Virus record (IMG/VR): IMGVR_UViG_2541047730_000004
Strand: one strand, 5' to 3'
DNA from: a virus
Lineage: Duplodnaviria > Heunggongvirae > Uroviricota > Caudoviricetes
DNA length: 42,322 bases
Both the position numbers and the translations under genes were made by a program. The notes below the pieces were generated by a model. That model made no database searches. It saw only the letters and a list, made by a program, of their open reading frames with translations, and was not told where the DNA came from. The first letter of the stretch is position 1, and every line of letters starts with the position of its first letter. This document shows positions 11,909 through 36,550 of the stretch, piece after piece.

Positions 11909-14900
11909 TCACCGCATCACCGGATCCACCTGGTTTATTAGTGGCGCAATCCAGAACAGGTTATTGCCTGGTATCAGAGTTCGGACATTATGCGCAATAC
12001 GATCACCGGCATCACCATTCAACACTCCTGCGGTCACATCAATGATGCTATCCGCAAGACCAAATGACGGTCCGAATAGAGATCCTACGAATCCACGACT
12101 GGCATACCTAGACTGTGTGCCAGTGCCAAATAAAGCCCCCAGCCCAACAGCACCACCAGTAGCCTTTTCAGCCATGTTGTTATATTCTATCAATGGCCCA
12201 AGAATACCGGATCTATCTATACCCTCAAGCACCAGCTTCTCTGGTGACCAGTCAACATTTTTCCCTTTCGATGCTTCTTTTAGCGCATAGACCAGTGAGC
12301 CAAGAGCAATCTGAAATGCAGTGCCATAATAAAATTGCGCAGTTCCTTCCTGTAACCCACCAAGTAGCGCACGGTTGTATGAAGCCGTTGTGAATGATTT
12401 AAACTGAAATATCGTTCGCCCCATTGGAGTACTCGCCCATAAAGGTGTGTCACCAATACCGGGGGTGATGATAGTGTTATTAACGTCTTTCAGAACCGCT
12501 GACTGGAATACTCCGGCAACGTACTGATCGTCCCATTTATCAAAGTTACCAATGTGCCATCCATCAATTACCTCACCATGTTTCTCGAACTCACTGCGAA
12601 TACGCGCAGCCATATTGTCGTTGATACCGAGTTTTGCCATGCGACGTGCAGAAAACGCACCGGACAAAATACCGTCTGACGTGAGCATTCCGTTCATGGA
12701 TTTGTTTATGTCATTAAATCGATCCATGAGTGTCAGCTTGCCGAAGGCATCAGTAATTCGCTCCATTCCTGCTTCGACTGCTGTTGTCCTGGAAGAACTG
12801 TCAACAAGATCACCAATTGCACGAGAACGTGAATGTAGTACAGCTTCCAATCCAATCCCCATCTTCAACATATCTTCTTTGCTGGCCTTAAATGCCGGTG
12901 ATTGGGATATCTGAGAAGCATAGCCTTTCATGGTGTTACGGAAACCATTAACCATAACCCCTCTGGCCAGATCTGGAATAGCTGATACTGTCATTCCACC
13001 GAGTTTGGTCGTGAAGTTCACATCCCGCAGAAAAGCGCCAGCACGAACAAAAAACGAAGACGGATCATCAGGCATCCCATATGTACCAACAAGACGATCG
13101 CGTAATGCTGTTATGTCTCTGAGATCATTTGCTCTTGATTTTGAAAGTCTGGACTGTTCTTTCCGTAATTCCTTTTCGTACTTTCGCATTAATGAATCGA
13201 GTTTACCCTGAGGAACAACTTCACCATTGCTCTCATAACGTGCTTTCAGATTTGCCACACTTTCGTCATATTTCGCCTTTATTTTTTCAGGCACTTCCCG
13301 TAACAGACTGTCATATTCGTCCTCAATTAATTGCAGACGCTCAGTCATAGTTCGTTTGCCAAATGTTCTCGTCAACTCAATTTCTGCTGCCGCTTCACGG
13401 ATATGACGTTGCAGCACGTAATTCACATCACTTTCAAGATAATCCCTGATAAGACTATCAGGAACATTTAATGTTCTTTCTTTCGTACTACCTGCGGCTT
13501 TTACAGAAAATACGCTGACAAAATCCTGTGGAACCTTAGCACCAGTAATTTTATTAATTACGATATCCGCTGCAATTTCAGCATCCTCAGGATCCAGTGT
13601 TTTATTTCCTCTCGACCACCAGTCAACCAAAATACGTCGAAATTTATCGCGTTCACTGATTATTTTTCCAACTTTATATATGCGTGGGAAATAGCTTGCC
13701 TGGCCTAATGCTTTCAGTTCTTCATCTGGCGGCAATAAACCAAGCTTTTGCATTTCAACTTTCACCCGATTTAATACAGTTCGCATCGCCTGCGCCGTTT
13801 CCTGAACAACAGGATTAGCATGCACATCACCGCTTCGCATAGCATTCCCAACCTGCTGACGAAATGAATCAAAACTCATGTCACCACCATCAGCTTTATA
13901 CTTTGCGTATGCCTGTTTATTTCCGACAACAACAGCAGCTTCTTCACGCTGCCATCCACGTGTACGGGTTTCTACAGCTACCGGTGTTTCAATCCCCCTT
14001 TCATTTCCTTTAAGGGTGAAATTATTTTCGGCTAACTCCAGCGTTGTTTTTCGCACCGTCTTGGACGGAGACTCCATTAACCTTGTCAAAGGAGTAAGAT
14101 AGCTCCCTGCTTTCCATGCAGCCTTTCCAACCCACCCACCGGAAACAGGGGTTAAATCATCCAGAGTCGCTGTATCAATTTTCATAGCACCAACACTACC
14201 ACCATCGGAAAGCGAAGCGGCAGCCCTGTCAGTCACTGATGTAATGCTCATATTATCAAGAGCATCAGCAACCTCACGTGTGGCTGCAGCCCGGACGGAT
14301 GGCGAAAGCGCAACACCAGCACTGGCAAACACGCCGCTCATCATCGCACCCGCTGCAACGTGAGCGGCACTTTCACCCCATGAGCGTGTTATTTGCTGAT
14401 TATTCAGTACAACCTCGCTTAATGCTGTACCGGCAGCACCAATCGCAATCTGTGAGCCAATACGCGCCAGTGCCCCTCCTTGAGCACCGGGAATAAACAT
14501 TGACGCAACAGTAACCGGATCCATTCCCGCAGCAATACTGGCAAGGGTTCCAACTACGCCAGCATCAGACAATAAACGTCTGTCTTCATTTTCATCATCT
14601 ATCTGCTGCTTAATCCACGCCGTTTCCTCTGGCGATCGGGAATCTGCAAATTTCGCCCCCCAGTATTCATAACCGTGCAACTCATTTTTATCAGCATATG
14701 GGTTATAACCCTCGACCGGTTCAAACTGTCTGGCTGGGCGGAAAAAACCAGACAGAATATTGTTCTGTCGCATTGCAGCCCCCCATACGGAAGGCTCAGG
14801 TGGCAATGGCTCAGGATTAGCCCCTTCCGGAAGGGCAACATCAAACCCAGTTTGTTCCGGCAAAACATTACCTGACGGGATCAGTCCGTTATTAAGATCT

Positions 14901-14923
14901 TCAGCTTGTGCATAAACTGGCAT
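11909..14923 (-). CDS. Internal virion (ejection/core) protein, T7 gp16-like position
   Basis: 1004 aa, last gene of the translationally coupled virion operon; start overlaps the upstream stop (TAATG). Confidence 0.6.
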   Translation of the reverse strand: MPVYAQAEDLNNGLIPSGNVLPEQTGFDVALPEGANPEPLPPEPSVWGAAMRQNNILSGFFRPARQFEPVEGYNPYADKNELHGYEYWGAKFADSRSPEETAWIKQQIDDENEDRRLLSDAGVVGTLASIAAGMDPVTVASMFIPGAQGGALARIGSQIAIGAAGTALSEVVLNNQQITRSWGESAAHVAAGAMMSGVFASAGVALSPSVRAAATREVADALDNMSITSVTDRAAASLSDGGSVGAMKIDTATLDDLTPVSGGWVGKAAWKAGSYLTPLTRLMESPSKTVRKTTLELAENNFTLKGNERGIETPVAVETRTRGWQREEAAVVVGNKQAYAKYKADGGDMSFDSFRQQVGNAMRSGDVHANPVVQETAQAMRTVLNRVKVEMQKLGLLPPDEELKALGQASYFPRIYKVGKIISERDKFRRILVDWWSRGNKTLDPEDAEIAADIVINKITGAKVPQDFVSVFSVKAAGSTKERTLNVPDSLIRDYLESDVNYVLQRHIREAAAEIELTRTFGKRTMTERLQLIEDEYDSLLREVPEKIKAKYDESVANLKARYESNGEVVPQGKLDSLMRKYEKELRKEQSRLSKSRANDLRDITALRDRLVGTYGMPDDPSSFFVRAGAFLRDVNFTTKLGGMTVSAIPDLARGVMVNGFRNTMKGYASQISQSPAFKASKEDMLKMGIGLEAVLHSRSRAIGDLVDSSSRTTAVEAGMERITDAFGKLTLMDRFNDINKSMNGMLTSDGILSGAFSARRMAKLGINDNMAARIRSEFEKHGEVIDGWHIGNFDKWDDQYVAGVFQSAVLKDVNNTIITPGIGDTPLWASTPMGRTIFQFKSFTTASYNRALLGGLQEGTAQFYYGTAFQIALGSLVYALKEASKGKNVDWSPEKLVLEGIDRSGILGPLIEYNNMAEKATGGAVGLGALFGTGTQSRYASRGFVGSLFGPSFGLADSIIDVTAGVLNGDAGDRIAHNVRTLIPGNNLFWIAPLINQVDPVMR

Positions 14924-17640
14924 TATTTAGATCCCCACGAAAAGTAATCTTTAAATTTGTCCATACGTTCGTTATGCAGGCGCTGATACTGCTCATCCAG
15001 AGCGCGATGCTTGTCTTTGAAGTTTCGTATAGCCTGTCCACGCATAATTTCTTCCTGCTCGTACTGCTCCCGTTCCTGCTGCATTTTCTTATAAGGTTCC
15101 CAATCTTCTAGTGATGGTTCCCAACGCATAGGACGCCCATGTTTGTTATAAAACGGCTGGACCCGATCGATGCCATTTTCATCCTTAGTTCTTACCATAA
15201 TGGCGTAATCACCATTACGGGGTGTTAACACGTCAGGGGTTATGAATAATTCTCCATTAATACGACTCTCAGGGGTTTTTGTCTCAACTACAGGAGCATT
15301 ACCTGACGTGATCCCAAGCAACGTCGGACTGGTTGTTATAATCTCTTTGCGCTCACCGTACATCAGCCGTTCTTTTTCAGCTTTCCACTGCGCCGCCTGC
15401 CAGCCTGACGGCCCATATTGATAAAGCGCCTCCGGTGCATATTTCATAAACTGCGCTTCTCCGTTAACCTCGCTGATACTCCAAGTGCGGGCTATCTGCT
15501 GGTTGGTCATTTGCTTCGCTACGTCAGCGTTACCACCAGCAACGCGGTAGTTAATGTCATACATCGTCTGATAGTCATTACGGAATCTAGCTGCTTCCGG
15601 CGTCTGGTCATCCGCAGACGGATCCCAACGGAACCACTGCGCCATATTGCTGACAGCAGAATTCATCGCCTTGCTGCGATCATTTTTGTACTCTTTTGAA
15701 CTCTGCGTTGATGCCAATTGAGCTTTAAGTGCATCGGTCTGGTTGTACGTAAGGTTCTGCGCCTGCTCGATAGCCGCATCAGCAGACATGCCAGAATCAG
15801 TTAGTTGCTTAACAGTCAGATAAAAACCCTGCATATCCTTCGGCATATTTCCAATAGATGCATTGTCTGTTTCATATAACCGACTAAACAGTTCCGCCGC
15901 ATTTTTAACCACTTCCTGATTGCTGGATCGGGATACTGCTGAAAGCTGCGTGATGACCTGCGAAGGCATTATGCCAGTCTGAGCCACAAGCCGAACAACC
16001 CCATCATGAGTGGAGACATCATTAATACGAAAGTTCTGCGCCATTTCTGTGTAATCAGCAGCTTTCTGCATTGACTTGTTGCTTGGGTCTAATTTTTCAC
16101 CTATTGTCAGCGCCTCATTGAATCTGCGTGAATCCCGTTGCGCCTGAATTGCTTCATTTGATCTCTGAAGCAATGCAGACAATTTTCCGTAAGCATCGAG
16201 TTTTAACGCATAGTGAGGATCGTTAACCTCAGGCTTCACTTTCTGCATTTCTTCTTGCTGCTGAGAAGGAGGCAAATACTGAATTGCCTGGAATATTCTC
16301 GCGTTATCAATCGCTATATCCAGTTGATTGATTATTTTATCTGCGTTTTTTCCATACCCCCTGATGATGGTCTCCTGAGCCGGTATATAATCTGGAACCT
16401 CACCGTTATATAGCTGGGCCATGGTGTTATTAATAGCTGGCTCAAGCTGTTCTAATATTAACTTCCTTTGCTTTTCTATCTGACTATTAGCAAGGTTATC
16501 TATTTGATAAATAGTCAGTGGATCCATTCCAGTTTTATTTTTTCTATATCGGGAAAGCCACCCTTGTGTTTCTGATGGAAGATTTCGGATAAATTCTTCT
16601 TCTGATATTTCACCTTTACGTGGATCACCGACTTTGGCGATCAGTTTATCCACGTTACCCATCCCCCAGTTATATGCTGCTCCGGTCAATATTTCTGAGC
16701 CGTACTTACCATACAGTTGATTTACATAGTCACTGGCAAGCATTTCATGCTGTTGTTCGTCCGTAGGGTTGTATTCAACGCCACGTTTGGCCGCCAGTTC
16801 TTTCCCTGTGCCCGGCATTAACTGGTATTTCCCCTGGGCCCTCTCTCCAGAAGATGTTTTCGGTCCTTCAAGAATACTACCATCAGGATTAAAATGACGA
16901 TCACCTGATTCAACAAGGCGTATGGCACGCATGTCCATGCCTCCAGAATCATTTTTCTGAAACTGACCATTTAACCATCCTTCCGGATTAGCAGCGGCAT
17001 AATTCTTCGCCCGCATTTCTGTGGCACTGCGATCATCACTTTCTATTTCTTCCAGAATGCGTTCTTGTGACCATCCCCTGGCTGCTCCATATCTGGCAAT
17101 GGCTACCATTCTGGAATTTCTGGCTAAAGTGGCAGTTTGCGGGTCATTCCAGGCATCCGCTTCATTTTGTATCCATAATTTTCTCGTTGCCTGATATTGC
17201 TCATCTTCATAGGCATTTGTCTGCCCTATCTCATGTCTGAGAACTCCAGTACTGAACTGAATTTTCTGTGTTCTGGCTTGTTGCAAAAACATATTTCTTG
17301 CTGCTTCATCAGTCAATGAAGCAGCTATTTCTTCCACATCCTGATCAAATCCAGATATGTACTCTTGCCCCTTACCAATCGCATTTTTGCCTTGTTGTGC
17401 ATAAAAACCGGTTTGAGGGTTATAAAGACGTTCATTGCTGCGCTGATTAAGCTGAAGGATGGCATCCTGAGACAATGCAACATTCGCTTTCTGCCTGGCT
17501 TCACCATATGCCACCGCATACTGATCTGCGACATTCGCCAGCACCTGACCTGCTTGAGGAACATCGAAGGTTTGAAAACCACCGGTTTGCACACCACGAC
17601 TTTGCACCTGGCGTCCGGATGTAGTAGGAACAACAGGCAT
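14923..17640 (-). CDS. Internal virion protein with lytic transglycosylase (SLT) domain
   Basis: Central segment AIRLVESGDRHFNPDGS...GKYQLMPGTGKEL...AYNWGMGNV matches the SLT catalytic-domain pattern (ES...Q.MP...Y.WG); 905 aa. Confidence 0.7.
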   Translation of the reverse strand: MPVVPTTSGRQVQSRGVQTGGFQTFDVPQAGQVLANVADQYAVAYGEARQKANVALSQDAILQLNQRSNERLYNPQTGFYAQQGKNAIGKGQEYISGFDQDVEEIAASLTDEAARNMFLQQARTQKIQFSTGVLRHEIGQTNAYEDEQYQATRKLWIQNEADAWNDPQTATLARNSRMVAIARYGAARGWSQERILEEIESDDRSATEMRAKNYAAANPEGWLNGQFQKNDSGGMDMRAIRLVESGDRHFNPDGSILEGPKTSSGERAQGKYQLMPGTGKELAAKRGVEYNPTDEQQHEMLASDYVNQLYGKYGSEILTGAAYNWGMGNVDKLIAKVGDPRKGEISEEEFIRNLPSETQGWLSRYRKNKTGMDPLTIYQIDNLANSQIEKQRKLILEQLEPAINNTMAQLYNGEVPDYIPAQETIIRGYGKNADKIINQLDIAIDNARIFQAIQYLPPSQQQEEMQKVKPEVNDPHYALKLDAYGKLSALLQRSNEAIQAQRDSRRFNEALTIGEKLDPSNKSMQKAADYTEMAQNFRINDVSTHDGVVRLVAQTGIMPSQVITQLSAVSRSSNQEVVKNAAELFSRLYETDNASIGNMPKDMQGFYLTVKQLTDSGMSADAAIEQAQNLTYNQTDALKAQLASTQSSKEYKNDRSKAMNSAVSNMAQWFRWDPSADDQTPEAARFRNDYQTMYDINYRVAGGNADVAKQMTNQQIARTWSISEVNGEAQFMKYAPEALYQYGPSGWQAAQWKAEKERLMYGERKEIITTSPTLLGITSGNAPVVETKTPESRINGELFITPDVLTPRNGDYAIMVRTKDENGIDRVQPFYNKHGRPMRWEPSLEDWEPYKKMQQEREQYEQEEIMRGQAIRNFKDKHRALDEQYQRLHNERMDKFKDYFSWGSK

Positions 17641-33766: not shown

Positions 33767-33827
33767 CTTTACCCTCGCTTATCCACATAACTTATTGATT
33801 ACATTGATAACTAAAAAGATCGTCTAT

Positions 33828-34289: not shown

Positions 34290-35090
34290 TTACTTGATAA
34301 ATCCTGCCGCCTTTCCCCGCCTGTATTCCTCCATCAGCCACTGCGCCGGTGTTATTCCCCCCAGGGTAGCGGCGTTAGGCATACACCCGAAACTTCGCCC
34401 TGGTGGATGGTAAACGTCTCTCCCTGTGTCCGGAGGCGTACTCATGGGTTCTGGCTTTGCCTGTATGCTGATCACCGGATCGGGTATCTGCTGTCCGGAA
34501 GCCACCTTTTTCGCCCAATCATCAAGCAGCCTGCGCGCGTGTTTCTCAACCTCAATCTCGCTAAGCTGGCGCTGATACATTGCACGGCGGGTATCACATA
34601 CGACCCAGTACATAACCGGATGCCGCCACGGGAATCTTTCGGGACCACCAGGATATAAACTTTTTTCCTTGCTATACCGGTGAAACTCCGCCATCACATC
34701 GTCAATGGTGACGCCAAGAACCATCTTGCTGTCTTTACACCACTTGATAAATTGCCCTGGCGACGGCCAGAACGGAGATTCACTGGCGCGGGCGTGGCGC
34801 ATACCAGCAGAAACCTGTTCACGGGTTCGGATCCCCCCTTCGGCAAACGCAGCAATCCACTGCTGTTTTGCAGCAACTTCCTGCTCTGGCGTCTTCAGGT
34901 TGGTTACCACTGCCGCCGGAAACAGTTGTTTCAACTGTTTGAAAAGGGCATCAACAAGCCTCTCTGCTGACATGTTCACTACGTTGTCATTGTTGGTGTA
35001 CTGATGCTCATAACCTGACATGCGAGAAAGGGCTTCTCCGTCACGGTTTTGTATCGCGGTAAAAACGTTGTTCACAAGAAATCCTCCCAT
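34290..35090 (-). CDS. Replication protein P-like (DnaB helicase loader)
   Basis: QQWIAAFAEGGIRTREQVSAGMRHARASESPFWPSPGQFIKWC aligns with lambda P (RRQWVLAFRENGITTMEQVNAGMRVARRQNRPFLPSPGQFVAWC). True start may be the internal Met at about 35021. Confidence 0.8.
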   Translation of the reverse strand: MGGFLVNNVFTAIQNRDGEALSRMSGYEHQYTNNDNVVNMSAERLVDALFKQLKQLFPAAVVTNLKTPEQEVAAKQQWIAAFAEGGIRTREQVSAGMRHARASESPFWPSPGQFIKWCKDSKMVLGVTIDDVMAEFHRYSKEKSLYPGGPERFPWRHPVMYWVVCDTRRAMYQRQLSEIEVEKHARRLLDDWAKKVASGQQIPDPVISIQAKPEPMSTPPDTGRDVYHPPGRSFGCMPNAATLGGITPAQWLMEEYRRGKAAGFIK

Positions 35091-35887
35091 GCTTCAGGGC
35101 TGTTCCAGTGCGGAACGTTGTTATCAGGTAATGTTGATTGCTTCTGTCTGCTAATCTGCAGCCGCCTTGCCAGCTTCTGCTCCCACTGTGCCTGATGGTA
35201 TGCCTTACCCTCAGCCATCCAGTAAATTCTGAACTCTGCAAGTTCCTGTGCCGTTGGCAGACTGTCTAGGTAGATCCCCTGCAATGAGCTTTTCCGAAGA
35301 AAGTCATCTGATGGTTGCCATTGTTCATGCATGACAAATTTGCCTAATTGCCCTGGCCCACCAGGAGGAACAAAGTTATTCATCACGGCGTTGTTTGCGC
35401 CGGGGTCATGAGGCACAGAATCCCCGCTTTTTGTCCTGCTCTCCCTCTCTTGGTTAAATGACTGGTTATATGACTGGTTCTGGATCCCGTTTTTGGGATC
35501 ATTCAACATCCCGTTTTTGGGATCATTCAACATCCCGTTTTTGGGTATATTCCCGTTTTCGGTAACATTACCGCTTTCGGGTTCATTACCCCCTTCCCGG
35601 TTGCCTTTAATGTTCCCGTTTTTGGTTATATTAAGAGAGAAAACCCGCACTCTTTTCGTCGCTCCCTTTCTCTCTCCGGTATCTGAAATAAGCCCCATTT
35701 TCATGAGCGATATAAGCCCGGCCTGCACGGTTTTTTTATTCAGGCAAGTGTCTTTAACGAGGCGTTCTATGCTGGGGTAGCAGAGGTTATATTCATCGGC
35801 TCTGTCAGCCATCGAGAGCAGTATGAGCTTTAATGACGAGCTACCTGGATCTGTCTCCCAGGCCCAATCTGTTGCATGTCTGCTCAT
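35072..35887 (-). CDS. Replication initiator (O-like, winged-helix N-terminus) containing the origin iterons
   Basis: Position directly upstream of the P homologue; HTH-like N-terminus; internal peptide repeat NDPKNGMLNDPKNGMLNDPKNG encoded by the DNA iterons. Confidence 0.7.
   Translation of the reverse strand: MSRHATDWAWETDPGSSSLKLILLSMADRADEYNLCYPSIERLVKDTCLNKKTVQAGLISLMKMGLISDTGERKGATKRVRVFSLNITKNGNIKGNREGGNEPESGNVTENGNIPKNGMLNDPKNGMLNDPKNGIQNQSYNQSFNQERESRTKSGDSVPHDPGANNAVMNNFVPPGGPGQLGKFVMHEQWQPSDDFLRKSSLQGIYLDSLPTAQELAEFRIYWMAEGKAYHQAQWEQKLARRLQISRQKQSTLPDNNVPHWNSPEAWEDFL
35484..35627. repeat. Origin iterons: about 7 copies of (T/A)YCCCGTTTT(T/C)GG
   Basis: Three perfect 24-bp tandem units ATCCCGTTTTTGGGATCATTCAAC followed by degenerate copies, inside the O-like gene. 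Confidence 0.75.
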
Positions 35888-35902: not shown

Positions 35903-36103
35903 TCAGCTTGAATGTTGTGGGGAGGAATTAATCATGATCTGCTTAATCTCTGCCCTGATACGACGGTTTGATTCCATGGTGCACTCAACACAGTGTCCAT
36001 TGTAAACCCAGCGTTCACTGTCATGTCCGTGCTTACATGTTTTTCCGGTGTAGTAGCGTTTAAGTCCGCGCTTTGCGGCATCAATACGTGTAATGATTTC
36101 CAT
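35903..36103 (-). CDS. Small zinc-finger protein at the cII-equivalent position
   Basis: Between the cro-like and O-like genes; Cys/His cluster CKHGHDSERWVYNGHCVEC; start taken at MEIITR. Confidence 0.4.
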   Translation of the reverse strand: MEIITRIDAAKRGLKRYYTGKTCKHGHDSERWVYNGHCVECTMESNRRIRAEIKQIMINSSPQHSS

Positions 36104-36182
36104 GGTAAGCCCTGTTATTAGTATTGGGATTACGGTTATTTTGTGCTGACACAAAAAAAAGATCAACCATATTTGGTTTTTT

Positions 36183-36199
36183 ATTACCTTTAAGGTGCG
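36183..36199. promoter_or_regulatory. Operator-like site ATTACC-TTTAA-GGTGCGA
   Basis: TTACC-N5-GGTG; between the cro-like gene and the cII-position gene. Confidence 0.4.
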
Positions 36200-36253
36200 A
36201 ATAGATATGAAAAGACCGCCGGGTGGCGGTCTACAGAGGGGTGTAGCTGGATA

Positions 36254-36484
36254 TCATGAGTAGAAGAAGTATGCCAGTTCTGCTTTTGAGCGCAACCATT
36301 GTCTTGTTTTACAGGCTTTAAAAAGCCCATTCATCAATACTTTACCTGGCATTTTGCGCTTACCTGTTAAGTGAGTCTGGATATAGTGACTCGTCGTTCC
36401 GGCTTCCTGTGCGAAGGCTTCACGCTCATCCGGAGTAAGTGCAAGCCAGTGCTTTTTGAAATCGAAATGTTCGTTATCGCTCAT
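36254..36484 (-). CDS. Cro-like small HTH regulator
   Basis: 76 aa, divergent from the CI-like gene across an operator-containing 154-bp region; HTH-like segment AGTTSHYIQTHLTGKR. Confidence 0.5.
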   Translation of the reverse strand: MSDNEHFDFKKHWLALTPDEREAFAQEAGTTSHYIQTHLTGKRKMPGKVLMNGLFKACKTRQWLRSKAELAYFFYS

Positions 36485-36496
36485 AGCTATTGCCTG

Positions 36497-36520
36497 ATAT
36501 TTATTTCAGATAATAAATAT
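36497..36520. promoter_or_regulatory. AT-rich 9-6-9 palindrome ATATTTATT-TCAGAT-AATAAATAT in the switch region
   Basis: Perfect inverted arms; may be a promoter element or a second operator type. Confidence 0.35.
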
Positions 36521-36550
36521 TCACCCATAAGGTAACAAAAATCAAGGATA

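What the first reader, a model, noticed from the sequence alone, without database searches (positions are those of the whole stretch)
35072..35887. Replication origin iterons embedded in the initiator gene
Three perfect 24-bp tandem repeats plus about four degenerate copies (35484-35627) lie inside the O-like ORF and encode a repeated NDPKNGML peptide. This is the lambda-type ori-within-O arrangement, and pins down the origin.
Basis: partly seen in the sequence, partly recalled or inferred. Interest (0 to 1): 0.4.

Follow-up and report, generated by a model that had tools for sequence, protein, structure and literature searches.

The report
Phage replication origin inside initiator gene
The repeats are real and are almost certainly the binding sites of this E. 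coli prophage's replication starter protein, sitting inside that protein's own gene as in phage lambda; this is an ordinary arrangement, but here it belongs to a widespread protein family whose origin I could not find described.

Summary
There are 2.6 perfect 24-nt units at 35484-35545, giving three exact 12-nt cores CCCAAAAACGGG. Three recognisable degenerate copies and one doubtful copy follow, up to 35628.

The ORF at 35072-35887 (-) has an HTH_36 winged-helix N-domain and a DnaT-type C-domain. A lambda-P homologue follows it through a GTGA stop/start overlap. The window is a phiV10-like (Uetakevirus) prophage.

The origin reading is supported by comparison:
- 76 of 82 diverse loci that share only the N-domain carry the same architecture: a dyad-symmetric iteron array, then CRGAAYC repeats.
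- In 65 of 72 intact ORFs the motif is read in two or three frames, so selection acts on the DNA, not on the peptide.
- The module is joined to P, DnaC-like, DnaB or primase-helicase partners.
- In Edwardsiella phage GF-2 it is fused to the lambda O C-terminus, with its iterons and post-iteron repeats exactly where lambda's iterons and AT-rich tract lie.

It is not a lambda O family member: there is no PF04492 match and no high-AT tract. Nothing here is experimentally shown. I rate it a new member of a known kind, of modest interest.

The parts
35072..35887 (-). Initiator gene (271 aa): N-terminal HTH_36 winged helix, repeat-encoded linker, C-terminal DnaT-type domain.
   Evidence: ORF. Pfam HTH_36 1.8e-10 and DnaT 1.2e-15. 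PHROG 1032 'replication initiation protein' 4.8e-108.
35627..35887 (-). Coding region for the N-terminal DNA-binding domain (about aa 1-87). This is the part shared by all iteron-bearing homologues.
   Evidence: Alignments A2 and A3. Loci retrieved with this domain alone carry the iterons.
35484..35628 (-). Iteron array, all copies in one orientation. Twelve-nt cores lie at 35615-35626, 35570-35581, 35552-35563, 35534-35545, 35510-35521 and 35486-35497. A doubtful degenerate copy lies at about 35588-35605. Spacing towards the 3' end of the gene is 45 (via the doubtful copy), 18, 18, 24, 24 nt. Each core is a hyphenated dyad, ATCCC-AAAAAC-GGGAT.
   Evidence: Family consensus and dyad covariation. 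Gene nt 344-426 is invariant in 42 alleles.
35444..35482 (-). Post-iteron element CAGAACCAGTCATATAACCAGTCATTTAACCAAGAGAGG: three AACCA/GAAYC-type units at 12-nt period. Candidate DNA-unwinding region, occupying the position of lambda's AT-rich tract.
   Evidence: TRF 35451-35479. Conserved at a fixed distance after the last iteron in 76 of 82 loci, and in more than one reading frame. Positional equivalence to lambda's AT-rich tract through the GF-2 chimera. Only mildly unstable, dG -37 against a window mean of -41.8.
35093..35350 (-). Coding region for the DnaT-type C-terminal domain (aa 180-265). Presumed contact with ssDNA and/or with P.
   Evidence: PDB DnaT chains 9zbt, 6aep and 4ou6, E about 1e-20. 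Pfam PF17948.
34290..35075 (-). Lambda-P-family helicase loader gene. Its GTG start overlaps the initiator stop codon (GTGA). An alternative in-frame ATG lies at 35090.
   Evidence: PF06992 1.5e-56. PHROG 109. Sequence read. The phiV10 and PGAP annotations use the 4-nt overlap.
36213..36538 (-). Upstream transcription context: PR-like promoter (36510-36538), cro-like gene (36254-36484) and a tR1-like terminator (36213-36232). Transcription from here runs through the origin.
   Evidence: Consensus scans only. PHROG 35 for the cro-like ORF. phiV10 annotates a terminator at the same place.

Best explanation
The repeats are the origin of vegetative replication of this phiV10-like prophage. The origin lies inside the gene of its own initiator.

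Proposed mechanism:
1. Dimers of the initiator's N-terminal winged-helix (HTH_36) domain bind the five to seven dyad-symmetric iterons (ATCCC-AAAAAC-GGGAT). The iterons point in one direction and each contains an A5 tract, and binding builds an 'O-some'-like nucleoprotein complex.
2. The three exact 24-nt-spaced sites nearest the 3' side are the essential ones.
3. The stress of this complex opens the adjacent 12-nt-repeat element (35444-35482). This element takes the place of lambda's AT-rich tract.
4. The DnaT-type C-terminal domain engages the exposed single strand and/or the lambda-P-type loader encoded just downstream.
5. P delivers host DnaB.
6. Transcription from the PR-like promoter passes through the site.

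What is shown: the repeats, their symmetry, the domain content, the gene order, and conservation of the DNA elements across the family independent of reading frame.

What is inferred: binding of the iterons by the N-domain, the site of unwinding, the role of the C-domain, and replication itself.
For: 1. Protein identity. The ORF has HTH_36 plus a DnaT domain and matches the PHROG 'replication initiation protein'. A lambda P homologue follows with a stop/start overlap.

2. Family-wide conservation. Eighty-two loci were retrieved with the N-domain alone, at 40-87% identity, from Vibrio, Acinetobacter, Pseudoalteromonas, Edwardsiella, Providencia, Desulfovibrio and others. They carry up to 11 copies (typically 4-7) of a CC-(A/T-rich N6)-GG motif 260-550 nt after the start codon. 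The count in each 5-kb locus is about equal to the count in that stretch.

3. Selection on DNA. Spacings of 17, 22 and 25 nt put the same motif in 2-3 reading frames in 65 of 72 intact ORFs, read as PKNG, PQKR or PKTD.

4. Dimer-site symmetry. The consensus is cAGTCCCAAAAACGGGACt. The flanking positions covary so as to stay complementary, beyond all 1000 shuffles.

5. Modularity. The N-domain plus iterons is paired with P, DnaC/IstB-like, DnaB or Toprim-DnaB_C partners. Relatives with the same P or the same DnaT C-domain but another N-domain (TL-2011b, SPN1S) lack the iterons.

6. The natural chimera GF-2. Its C-terminal half is 62% identical to lambda O 156-299. Its iterons align over lambda ITN1-4, and its post-iteron repeats lie over lambda's high-AT region.

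7. Conservation of the proximal iterons. They are exact, and gene nt 344-426 is invariant in 42 alleles. This parallels lambda, where the two iterons next to the AT tract suffice in vitro (PMC7466680).

8. No competing repeat cluster. These are the only clustered repeats in the 42-kb window.

9. A possible natural mini-replicon. The 8.46-kb circular plasmid pZ1323HEC0067-2 consists of repressor/cro/ydaT/O-like/P-like genes plus cargo. It has no typed replicon and the same iteron core. It resembles a lambda-dv, in a subfamily with 38% identity to the window's protein.
Against: - There is no experiment of any kind.
- There is no strongly AT-rich tract. The candidate unwinding element is 58-61% A+T and only about 1.3 sd less stable than the window mean. 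The least stable DNA of the region is intergenic, at 36080-36220 and 36494-36524.
- Homology of the N-domain to lambda O is not demonstrable (hhalign probability 4%), so binding is inferred from co-occurrence only.
- No covariation between protein sequence and iteron flanks could be seen beyond phylogeny.
- In this particular phage all copies are in one frame, so the frame argument rests on relatives.
- The small plasmid could be an assembly artefact of a single-cell data set.
- The structure model failed (pLDDT 38).
Confidence: 0.8

Rival explanations
1. The sites bind the initiator, but they act in control rather than as the start site. Possibilities are autoregulation or a roadblock on O/P expression, titration, or handcuffing of copies. 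Unwinding would then occur elsewhere, for example in the AT-rich intergenic DNA upstream.
For: - Iteron plasmids use the same sites for copy control (general knowledge; PMC4980987 and PMC5397158 are listed).
- The least stable DNA near the gene is intergenic, at 36080-36220 with GC 0.32-0.35, and not next to the iterons.
- Iteron copy number is hypervariable among near-identical phages, which suits a tuning role.
Against: - The conserved post-iteron element keeps a fixed distance to the last iteron in 76 of 82 loci, whereas the upstream intergenic DNA is not part of the conserved module.
- In GF-2 the module replaces exactly the lambda iterons plus AT tract, which are the experimentally defined ori-lambda.
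- A control role does not exclude an origin role.
Confidence: 0.1
2. The repeats have no function as DNA. They are a slippage-prone minisatellite that merely encodes a flexible, length-tolerant linker (N/G/P/K-rich) between two protein domains.
For: - In the window all copies are in frame and encode PKNG-type peptides.
- Linker length varies from 174 to 270 nt among 79 near-identical relatives, always in multiples of 6, 18 or 24 nt.
- The post-iteron element is in the same frame in 60 of 76 loci.
Against: - The same DNA motif is read in 2-3 frames within 65 of 72 intact homologous ORFs.
- The sites show dyad symmetry with covarying flanks.
- The nucleotide core, including codon third positions, is conserved between proteins only 40-50% identical.
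- The proximal iterons are invariant, while the doubtful copy drifts.
Confidence: 0.05
3. The sites are recognised by a different protein, such as a host factor, the phage repressor or a recombinase, or they act as structured DNA or RNA, for a purpose unrelated to replication.
For: - Neighbouring dyads can pair as hairpins, and these were picked up as terminator-like on the + strand.
- Three GATC sites lie within 42 nt.
Against: - The sites travel strictly with the HTH_36 N-domain and not with the repressor, P or host.
- GATC is absent from the Acinetobacter and Vibrio versions.
- The terminator-like hits are on the antisense strand.
Confidence: 0.05

Closest known systems
Bacteriophage lambda ori-lambda with O and P (also the Stx phages 933W and P27, which have six iterons)
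   Same: - The origin lies in the middle of the initiator gene, between the DNA-binding N-domain and the partner-binding C-domain.
- It has four or more direct repeats, each a hyphenated inverted repeat with an A-tract centre. Lambda has ATCCCTCAAAACGAGGGAT; here it is ATCCCAAAAACGGGAT.
- Iteron spacing is 20-24 nt.
- The iterons encode a flexible linker, and extra iterons add residues.
- A P-family loader gene follows with a stop/start overlap.
- The site lies in the PR operon.
(PMC7466680; PMC6022878)
   Different: - The N-domain is Pfam HTH_36, not Phage_rep_O, and no significant profile match was found.
- The C-domain is DnaT-type, not the lambda O C-terminus.
- The half-sites are 3 bp closer together.
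- Extra 18-nt-spaced degenerate sites are present.
- Three 12-nt repeats of moderate A+T content stand in place of the 39-bp high-AT tract.
Edwardsiella phage GF-2 'putative replication protein O' (AP014629)
   Same: - The same N-domain (57% identity over the first 90 aa).
- The same iteron plan: 17, 18, 24, 24 nt spacing, with three exact 24-nt units AATGATCCCAAAATTGGGATTTTG.
- The same CAGAAYCAGTCAT post-iteron element.
- P follows downstream.

   Different: Its C-terminal half is lambda O (62% identity to residues 156-299), not DnaT-type. No origin is annotated in the record.
Iteron-controlled plasmid origins (pSC101, RK2, R6K, P1 and F; Rep_3-type winged-helix initiators)
   Same: A winged-helix initiator binds directly repeated sites of 17-24 bp next to an unwinding element that itself contains short repeats (13-mers). 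Copy number of the sites matters. (General knowledge; PMC4980987 and PMC10602881 are listed.)
   Different: In these plasmids the iterons lie outside the rep gene. Here there is no Rep_3 match, no DnaA box nearby (the nearest is at 33779), and helicase recruitment is through lambda P.
E. coli DnaT (primosomal protein I), the name public annotation gives this gene
   Same: The C-terminal 85 residues match the DnaT ssDNA-binding domain (PDB 4ou6, 6aep, 9zbt; E about 1e-20).
   Different: The match covers that domain only. The NCBIfam DnaT equivalog scores 85 bits against a cut-off of 201. The N-terminal two thirds are unrelated. The context is a phage initiator-loader module, not replication restart.
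Lambda-dv plasmids
   Same: pZ1323HEC0067-2 is 8,461 bp and circular. It carries repressor, cro-like, ydaT, O-like (with the same iteron core) and P-like genes, and has no other typed replicon.
   Different: It belongs to the PPompW/Qin-type subfamily (38% identity to the window protein). It is a natural record that has not been verified experimentally, and it carries unrelated cargo genes.

Membership tests
Lambda O / ori-lambda family | N-terminal Phage_rep_O domain (Pfam PF04492). | tested here: not met
   The window protein hits only HTH_36 and DnaT at E<=0.01. Lambda O hits PF04492 at 5.7e-36 in the same library. hhalign of the N-domain profile against lambda O gives probability 4%.
Lambda O / ori-lambda family | Origin located inside the initiator gene, in the stretch that encodes the inter-domain linker. 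| tested here: met
   The repeats lie at gene nt 260-444, between HTH_36 (aa 18-67) and the DnaT domain (aa 180-265). Their function as an origin is inferred, not shown.
Lambda O / ori-lambda family | Four or more direct iterons, each an 18-19-bp hyphenated inverted repeat. | tested here: met
   Six recognisable cores with the ATCCC-N6-GGGAT dyad. Family-wide covariation of the flanks. The dyad is 16 bp here rather than 18-19 bp.
Lambda O / ori-lambda family | An adjacent high-AT tract of about 40 bp (around 80% A+T) as the unwinding element. | tested here: not met
   The 31-nt windows after the last iteron are 58-61% A+T, with dG -37 to -38 against a window mean of -41.8 (sd 3.6). Many relatives do have TCTAAAAATAAAAA after the repeats.
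Lambda O / ori-lambda family | A lambda P (PF06992) loader gene immediately downstream, translationally coupled. | tested here: met
   PF06992 at 1.5e-56. GTGA overlap read.
Lambda O / ori-lambda family | O- and P-dependent replication of a fragment carrying the site. | not testable with these tools
   There are only indirect hints: an 8.46-kb circular plasmid of a related subfamily, and the whole phage recorded as a 41-kb circular plasmid.
   Alignments A2 and A3. Identity of 46-57% to four phage homologues and up to 87% to genome loci.
Distal sites are spaced 17-18 nt and proximal sites 22-24 nt. | tested here: met
   The window has spacings of 18, 18, 24, 24. The same plan is seen in L005, L006, L091, L094, L107, L130 and others.
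   The window has GGGATC-CAGAACCAGTCATATAACCAGTCATTTAACCA. This junction is present in 76 of 82 loci.
DnaT (primosomal protein I), the public annotation | A full-length match to the DnaT equivalog, including the N-terminal PriB-binding part. | tested here: not met
   NCBIfam NF002770 scores 85 bits against a cut-off of 201, and the match covers aa 181-264 only.
Rep_3-type iteron plasmid initiators | A Rep_3 (WH1-WH2) domain, with iterons outside the gene. | tested here: not met
   No Rep_3 hit in Pfam. The iterons are intragenic.

The most novel reading that the evidence does not exclude
The window exemplifies a large, portable origin module that I could not find described. It consists of an HTH_36 initiator N-domain, a two-tier iteron array, and a conserved triplet of GAAYC-containing 11-12-nt repeats.

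The module occurs in temperate phages of Gamma- and Betaproteobacteria, Desulfovibrio and Sphingomonadales. In this reading the unwinding element is defined by sequence, being recognised as single or double strand by the initiator or by a host factor, rather than simply by A+T richness.

The module plugs into at least four different helicase-recruitment systems. The rapidly varying iteron number (1-5 exact units among near-identical E. coli prophages) would tune replication or incompatibility between co-resident prophages.
Probability: 0.3. Interest if true: 0.5.

Novelty: new member of a known kind. Interest (0 to 1): 0.33.

Why it matters
- The gene is present in about 8% of complete E. coli genomes (424 of 5426). 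Public annotation calls it 'DnaT-like ssDNA-binding domain-containing protein' or 'primosomal protein I', which hides its likely role as the phage initiator that carries the origin.
- Locating the origin gives a defined fragment for building phiV10-based vectors and reporter phages, and for predicting replication incompatibility between prophages.
- It also gives a comparative data set of about 300 natural iteron variants, with four types of downstream partner. That set can be used to ask how an initiator module is re-wired to different helicase loaders, and whether unwinding elements need to be AT-rich.
- Conceptually it repeats the lambda paradigm.

Tried and rejected
1. AlphaFold2 on the single sequence gave mean pLDDT 37.9, which is unusable. 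No fold search was run. The homologue search returned only near-identical E. coli proteins in its top 120, so no deep alignment was available for the permitted inputs.

2. The PDB search with the N-domain profile returned only marginal winged-helix hits (E>=0.085).

3. The profile comparison with lambda O was not significant. The resemblance of the iteron sequences (ATCCC..AAAAC..GGGAT in both) therefore remains an unexplained similarity, not evidence of homology.

4. A search for covariation between recognition-helix residues and iteron flanks showed nothing beyond phylogenetic grouping.

5. A DnaA-box scan found none near the repeats. The nearest perfect box is at 33779, and the total count is at chance level.

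6. GATC clustering: three sites lie within 42 nt inside the iterons, but a comparable triple exists elsewhere (14879-14933) and the overall count is at chance. I made no claim from it.

7. A first per-site variability count was invalid because one equal-length allele was shifted. It was redone after filtering.

8. Literature searches for the motif strings, for phiV10/epsilon15 plus 'origin of replication', for Acinetobacter prophage iterons and for oriJ found nothing on this origin. The library lacks most subscription journals, including the original phiV10 and epsilon15 genome papers.

9. IHF-site and DnaG CTG readings of the 12-nt repeats were considered by eye only. I rejected them because they are not conserved in the Acinetobacter and Edwardsiella versions.
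Full report
**1. What is in the sequence**

The finding's coordinates, 35072-35887, are exactly a 271-codon ORF on the minus strand.

Tandem Repeats Finder reports a period-24 array of 2.6 copies with 100% matches at 35484-35545 (score 124). It also reports an overlapping period-18 array at 35529-35580 and a separate period-12 array of 2.4 copies at 35451-35479.

Read on the gene strand, the unit is AATGAT-CCCAAAAACGGG-ATGTTG. The 12-nt core occurs three times exactly, at 35534, 35510 and 35486. It occurs with 1-2 mismatches at 35615 and 35552, and a further degenerate core, CCCGAAAGCGGT, lies at 35570. One more 'copy', around 35588-35605, is hardly recognisable.

'About four degenerate copies' is fair.

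The array is not a chance event. Five of the six matches within 2 mismatches in 42 kb fall in 141 nt. These are also the only local direct repeats with three or more copies in the whole window.

**2. What the gene is**

- The protein has a Pfam HTH_36 winged-helix domain (aa 18-67).
- It has a DnaT DNA-binding domain (aa 184-252), and it matches PHROG 1032 'replication initiation protein' end to end.
- The C-terminal 85 residues match solved E. coli DnaT chains at E about 1e-20. The whole protein fails the NCBIfam DnaT equivalog cut-off (85 against 201 bits). The public names 'primosomal protein I' and 'DnaT' therefore describe one domain only.
- The next gene (34290-35075) is a lambda P family loader (PF06992, 1.5e-56). 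Its GTG start overlaps the initiator's TGA stop as GTGA.
- Upstream lie a small zinc-ribbon ORF, a terminator-like hairpin, a cro-like gene with a PR-like promoter, and a divergent two-HTH repressor.
- The region is 97-99% identical to Escherichia phage phiV10 and other Uetakevirus genomes. No origin is annotated in phiV10.
- The gene occurs in 424 of 5426 complete E. coli genomes.

**3. Anatomy of one repeat**

Each core is a hyphenated dyad, ATCCC-AAAAAC-GGGAT. All copies point the same way.

Lambda's four iterons, as annotated in NC_001416 and read, are ATCCCTCAAAACGAGGGAT-type dyads at O nt 349-433, with 20, 24 and 23 nt spacing. A 39-bp high-AT region follows them (PMC6022878; PMC7466680).

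The resemblance in plan is close, and even extends to the outer arms and the A-tract. The half-sites here are 3 bp closer together.

**4. The decisive comparison**

Homologues that share only the N-terminal roughly 90 residues were collected from four phage records, and 80 genome loci were retrieved with a profile of that domain alone. They come from PPompW-type E. coli prophages, Vibrio phage H20, Edwardsiella phage GF-2 and Acinetobacter phage SPB.

- Almost all carry several copies (up to 11, typically 4-7) of a CC-(A/T-rich N6)-GG motif beginning 260-300 nt after the start codon. The motif is essentially confined to that stretch of each 5-kb locus.
- From 305 distinct sites the consensus is cAGTCCCAAAAACGGGACt. 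The mirrored flank positions stay complementary more often than in any of 1000 column shuffles. This is what a site for a dimer looks like. The test does not correct for relatedness.
- Spacings of 17, 22 and 25 nt are common. As a result, in 65 of 72 intact ORFs the same DNA motif is read in two or three reading frames, as PKNG, PQKR or PKTD. Selection on the peptide cannot produce this, so the conserved object is the DNA.
- The window's own copies are all in one frame. This argument therefore rests on the relatives.

**5. A second conserved element**

In 76 of 82 loci the last iteron is followed, after 3-5 nt, by CRGAAYC and by two or three repeats at 11-12-nt period. An A-rich run (TCTAAAAATAAAAA) often comes next.

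The element is in frame 0 in 60 loci, frame 1 in 13 and frame 2 in 3.

**6. Modularity**

The N-domain plus iterons is found upstream of four kinds of partner:
- lambda-P homologues (window, PPompW, GF-2, Providencia, Edwardsiella);
- DnaC/IstB-type ATPases (Vibrio salinus, Wohlfahrtiimonas);
- a DnaB helicase (Acinetobacter phage SPB);
- a Toprim-DnaB_C primase-helicase (Phaseolibacter).

Conversely, phage TL-2011b has a 97% identical P and a DnaT-type C-domain but a different N-domain, and it has no such repeats. The epsilon15-like SPN1S also lacks them.

The most telling case is GF-2. Its residues 137-280 are 62% identical to lambda O 156-299 (E 2e-67). In a DNA alignment its iterons lie over lambda ITN1-4, and its post-iteron repeats lie over lambda's high-AT tract. 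Both are followed by the shared sequence CGTCnGAGAATTCTGnCGAATCCTCnGAC.

Nature has thus swapped this module for the experimentally defined core of ori-lambda.

**7. Variation among close relatives**

Among 79 IMG/VR contigs whose N-domain is at least 99% identical, there are 41 different linker sequences of 174-270 nt. They carry 1-5 exact 24-nt units, variable numbers of 18-nt units, and 1-3 of the 12-nt units. Database proteins range from 263 to 311 aa.

Among 42 alleles of equal length, gene nt 344-426 has no variable site. This stretch holds the three proximal iterons and the start of the 12-mers. Elsewhere in the gene about 10% of sites vary, and the doubtful copy varies at 5 of 18 sites.

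This matches lambda, where the iterons next to the AT tract are the ones required in vitro (PMC7466680). Concerted evolution of the repeats could contribute to the invariance.

**8. Hints of autonomous replication**

Two E. coli records hold the whole phiV10-like genome as a 41,027-bp circular 'plasmid'.

An 8,461-bp circular E. coli plasmid, pZ1323HEC0067-2, consists of repressor, cro-like, ydaT, O-like and P-like genes plus cargo. It has no typed replicon and three exact CCCAAAAACGG in its O-like gene, against 0.14 expected.

It looks like a natural lambda-dv of the related PPompW subfamily. It comes from a single-cell data set and is unverified.

**9. What does not fit lambda**

- The window protein has no Phage_rep_O match, whereas lambda O does in the same library. 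The profile comparison is non-significant.
- There is no high-AT tract. The 12-mer region is 58-61% A+T and only about 1.3 sd less stable than average, and the least stable DNA nearby is intergenic.
- No DnaA box is near.

The mechanism proposed in the best explanation therefore carries over from lambda by analogy of architecture, not by family membership.

**10. Verdict**

The reading as an origin embedded in the initiator gene is well supported by comparative evidence but remains untested experimentally.

It is a new member of a well-known kind of system. The added value is the delimitation of a large HTH_36-initiator origin module with a conserved post-iteron repeat element. I found no description of it in the searchable literature, but that library omits most subscription journals.

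Noticed in passing
L006 (Edwardsiella phage GF-2, AP014629) 1501-2343: The initiator is a natural chimera. It joins the HTH_36 N-domain, the iterons and the GAAYC repeats to the lambda O C-terminal half (62% identity). The junction lies exactly at the end of the position of lambda's AT-rich tract.
   Followed up: yes
L172 (pZ1323HEC0067-2, NZ_CP148379.1), whole 8,461-bp record: A circular, non-mobilizable E. coli plasmid made of dicA-like, cro-like, ydaT, O-like (same iteron core) and P-like genes, plus hokD, rem, an HNH endonuclease and an ATPase. No replicon type is assigned. It is a possible natural lambda-dv-like mini-replicon, or an assembly artefact.
   Followed up: partly
L173 (pHL15EC-2, NZ_CP079771.1) and NZ_CP079768.1: A complete phiV10-like genome (41,027 bp) is recorded as a circular plasmid in two duck E. 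coli isolates. This could be an induced prophage, a carrier state, or plasmid-like maintenance.
   Followed up: no
L010-L089; window 35444-35628: Repeat number is hypervariable. There are 41 distinct linker DNAs among 79 contigs with a near-identical N-domain, with 1-5 exact 24-nt units. Phage BP9 lacks one unit, and phiV10 has one extra 12-nt unit.
   Followed up: yes
window 35483-35524: Three GATC (Dam) sites lie within 42 nt, one in each exact iteron arm (TGATCCC / GGGATC). Enterobacterial relatives share this, but the Acinetobacter and Vibrio versions do not. This could be a link to Dam/SeqA control, or it could be incidental.
   Followed up: partly
window 35494-35537 (+ strand): Arms of neighbouring iterons pair as hairpins followed by TTTTT, and were scored as terminator-like sites on the antisense strand. 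This is probably a by-product of the dyads.
   Followed up: no
window 35903-36103 (-): A small ORF between the terminator and the initiator gene has two CxxC pairs (KTCKHGH...HCVEC). It matches PHROG 1081 (unknown function) and is conserved in phiV10 (p42) and epsilon15 (p40). It could be a zinc-ribbon partner of the replication module.
   Followed up: no
L009 (phage TL-2011b) 2249-3073 and L008 (SPN1S) 1030-1845: These initiators have the same DnaT-type C-domain, and TL-2011b has a 97% identical P. They have a different N-domain and no recognisable iteron array, so their origins are unlocated.
   Followed up: partly
L002 (Escherichia phage BP9, PP488543.1) 134124-137010; also PH444 (PP350014.1): A 138-kb record classified as Vequintavirus, and a 115-kb unannotated record, contain this temperate phiV10-type repressor, O and P region near one end. 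This looks like a chimeric assembly or contamination.
   Followed up: no
window 33779-33787: A single perfect DnaA box, TTATCCACA, lies 1.7 kb downstream of the repeats, between the DUF1064 gene and the next ORF. The window-wide count is at chance level.
   Followed up: no
window 35486-35545 compared with L170 735-819: The iteron arms and centre (ATCCC..AAAAC..GGGAT) are the same as in lambda, although the two N-domains show no detectable sequence similarity. It is unresolved whether this is convergence on a bendable A-tract dyad or very deep common ancestry.
   Followed up: partly
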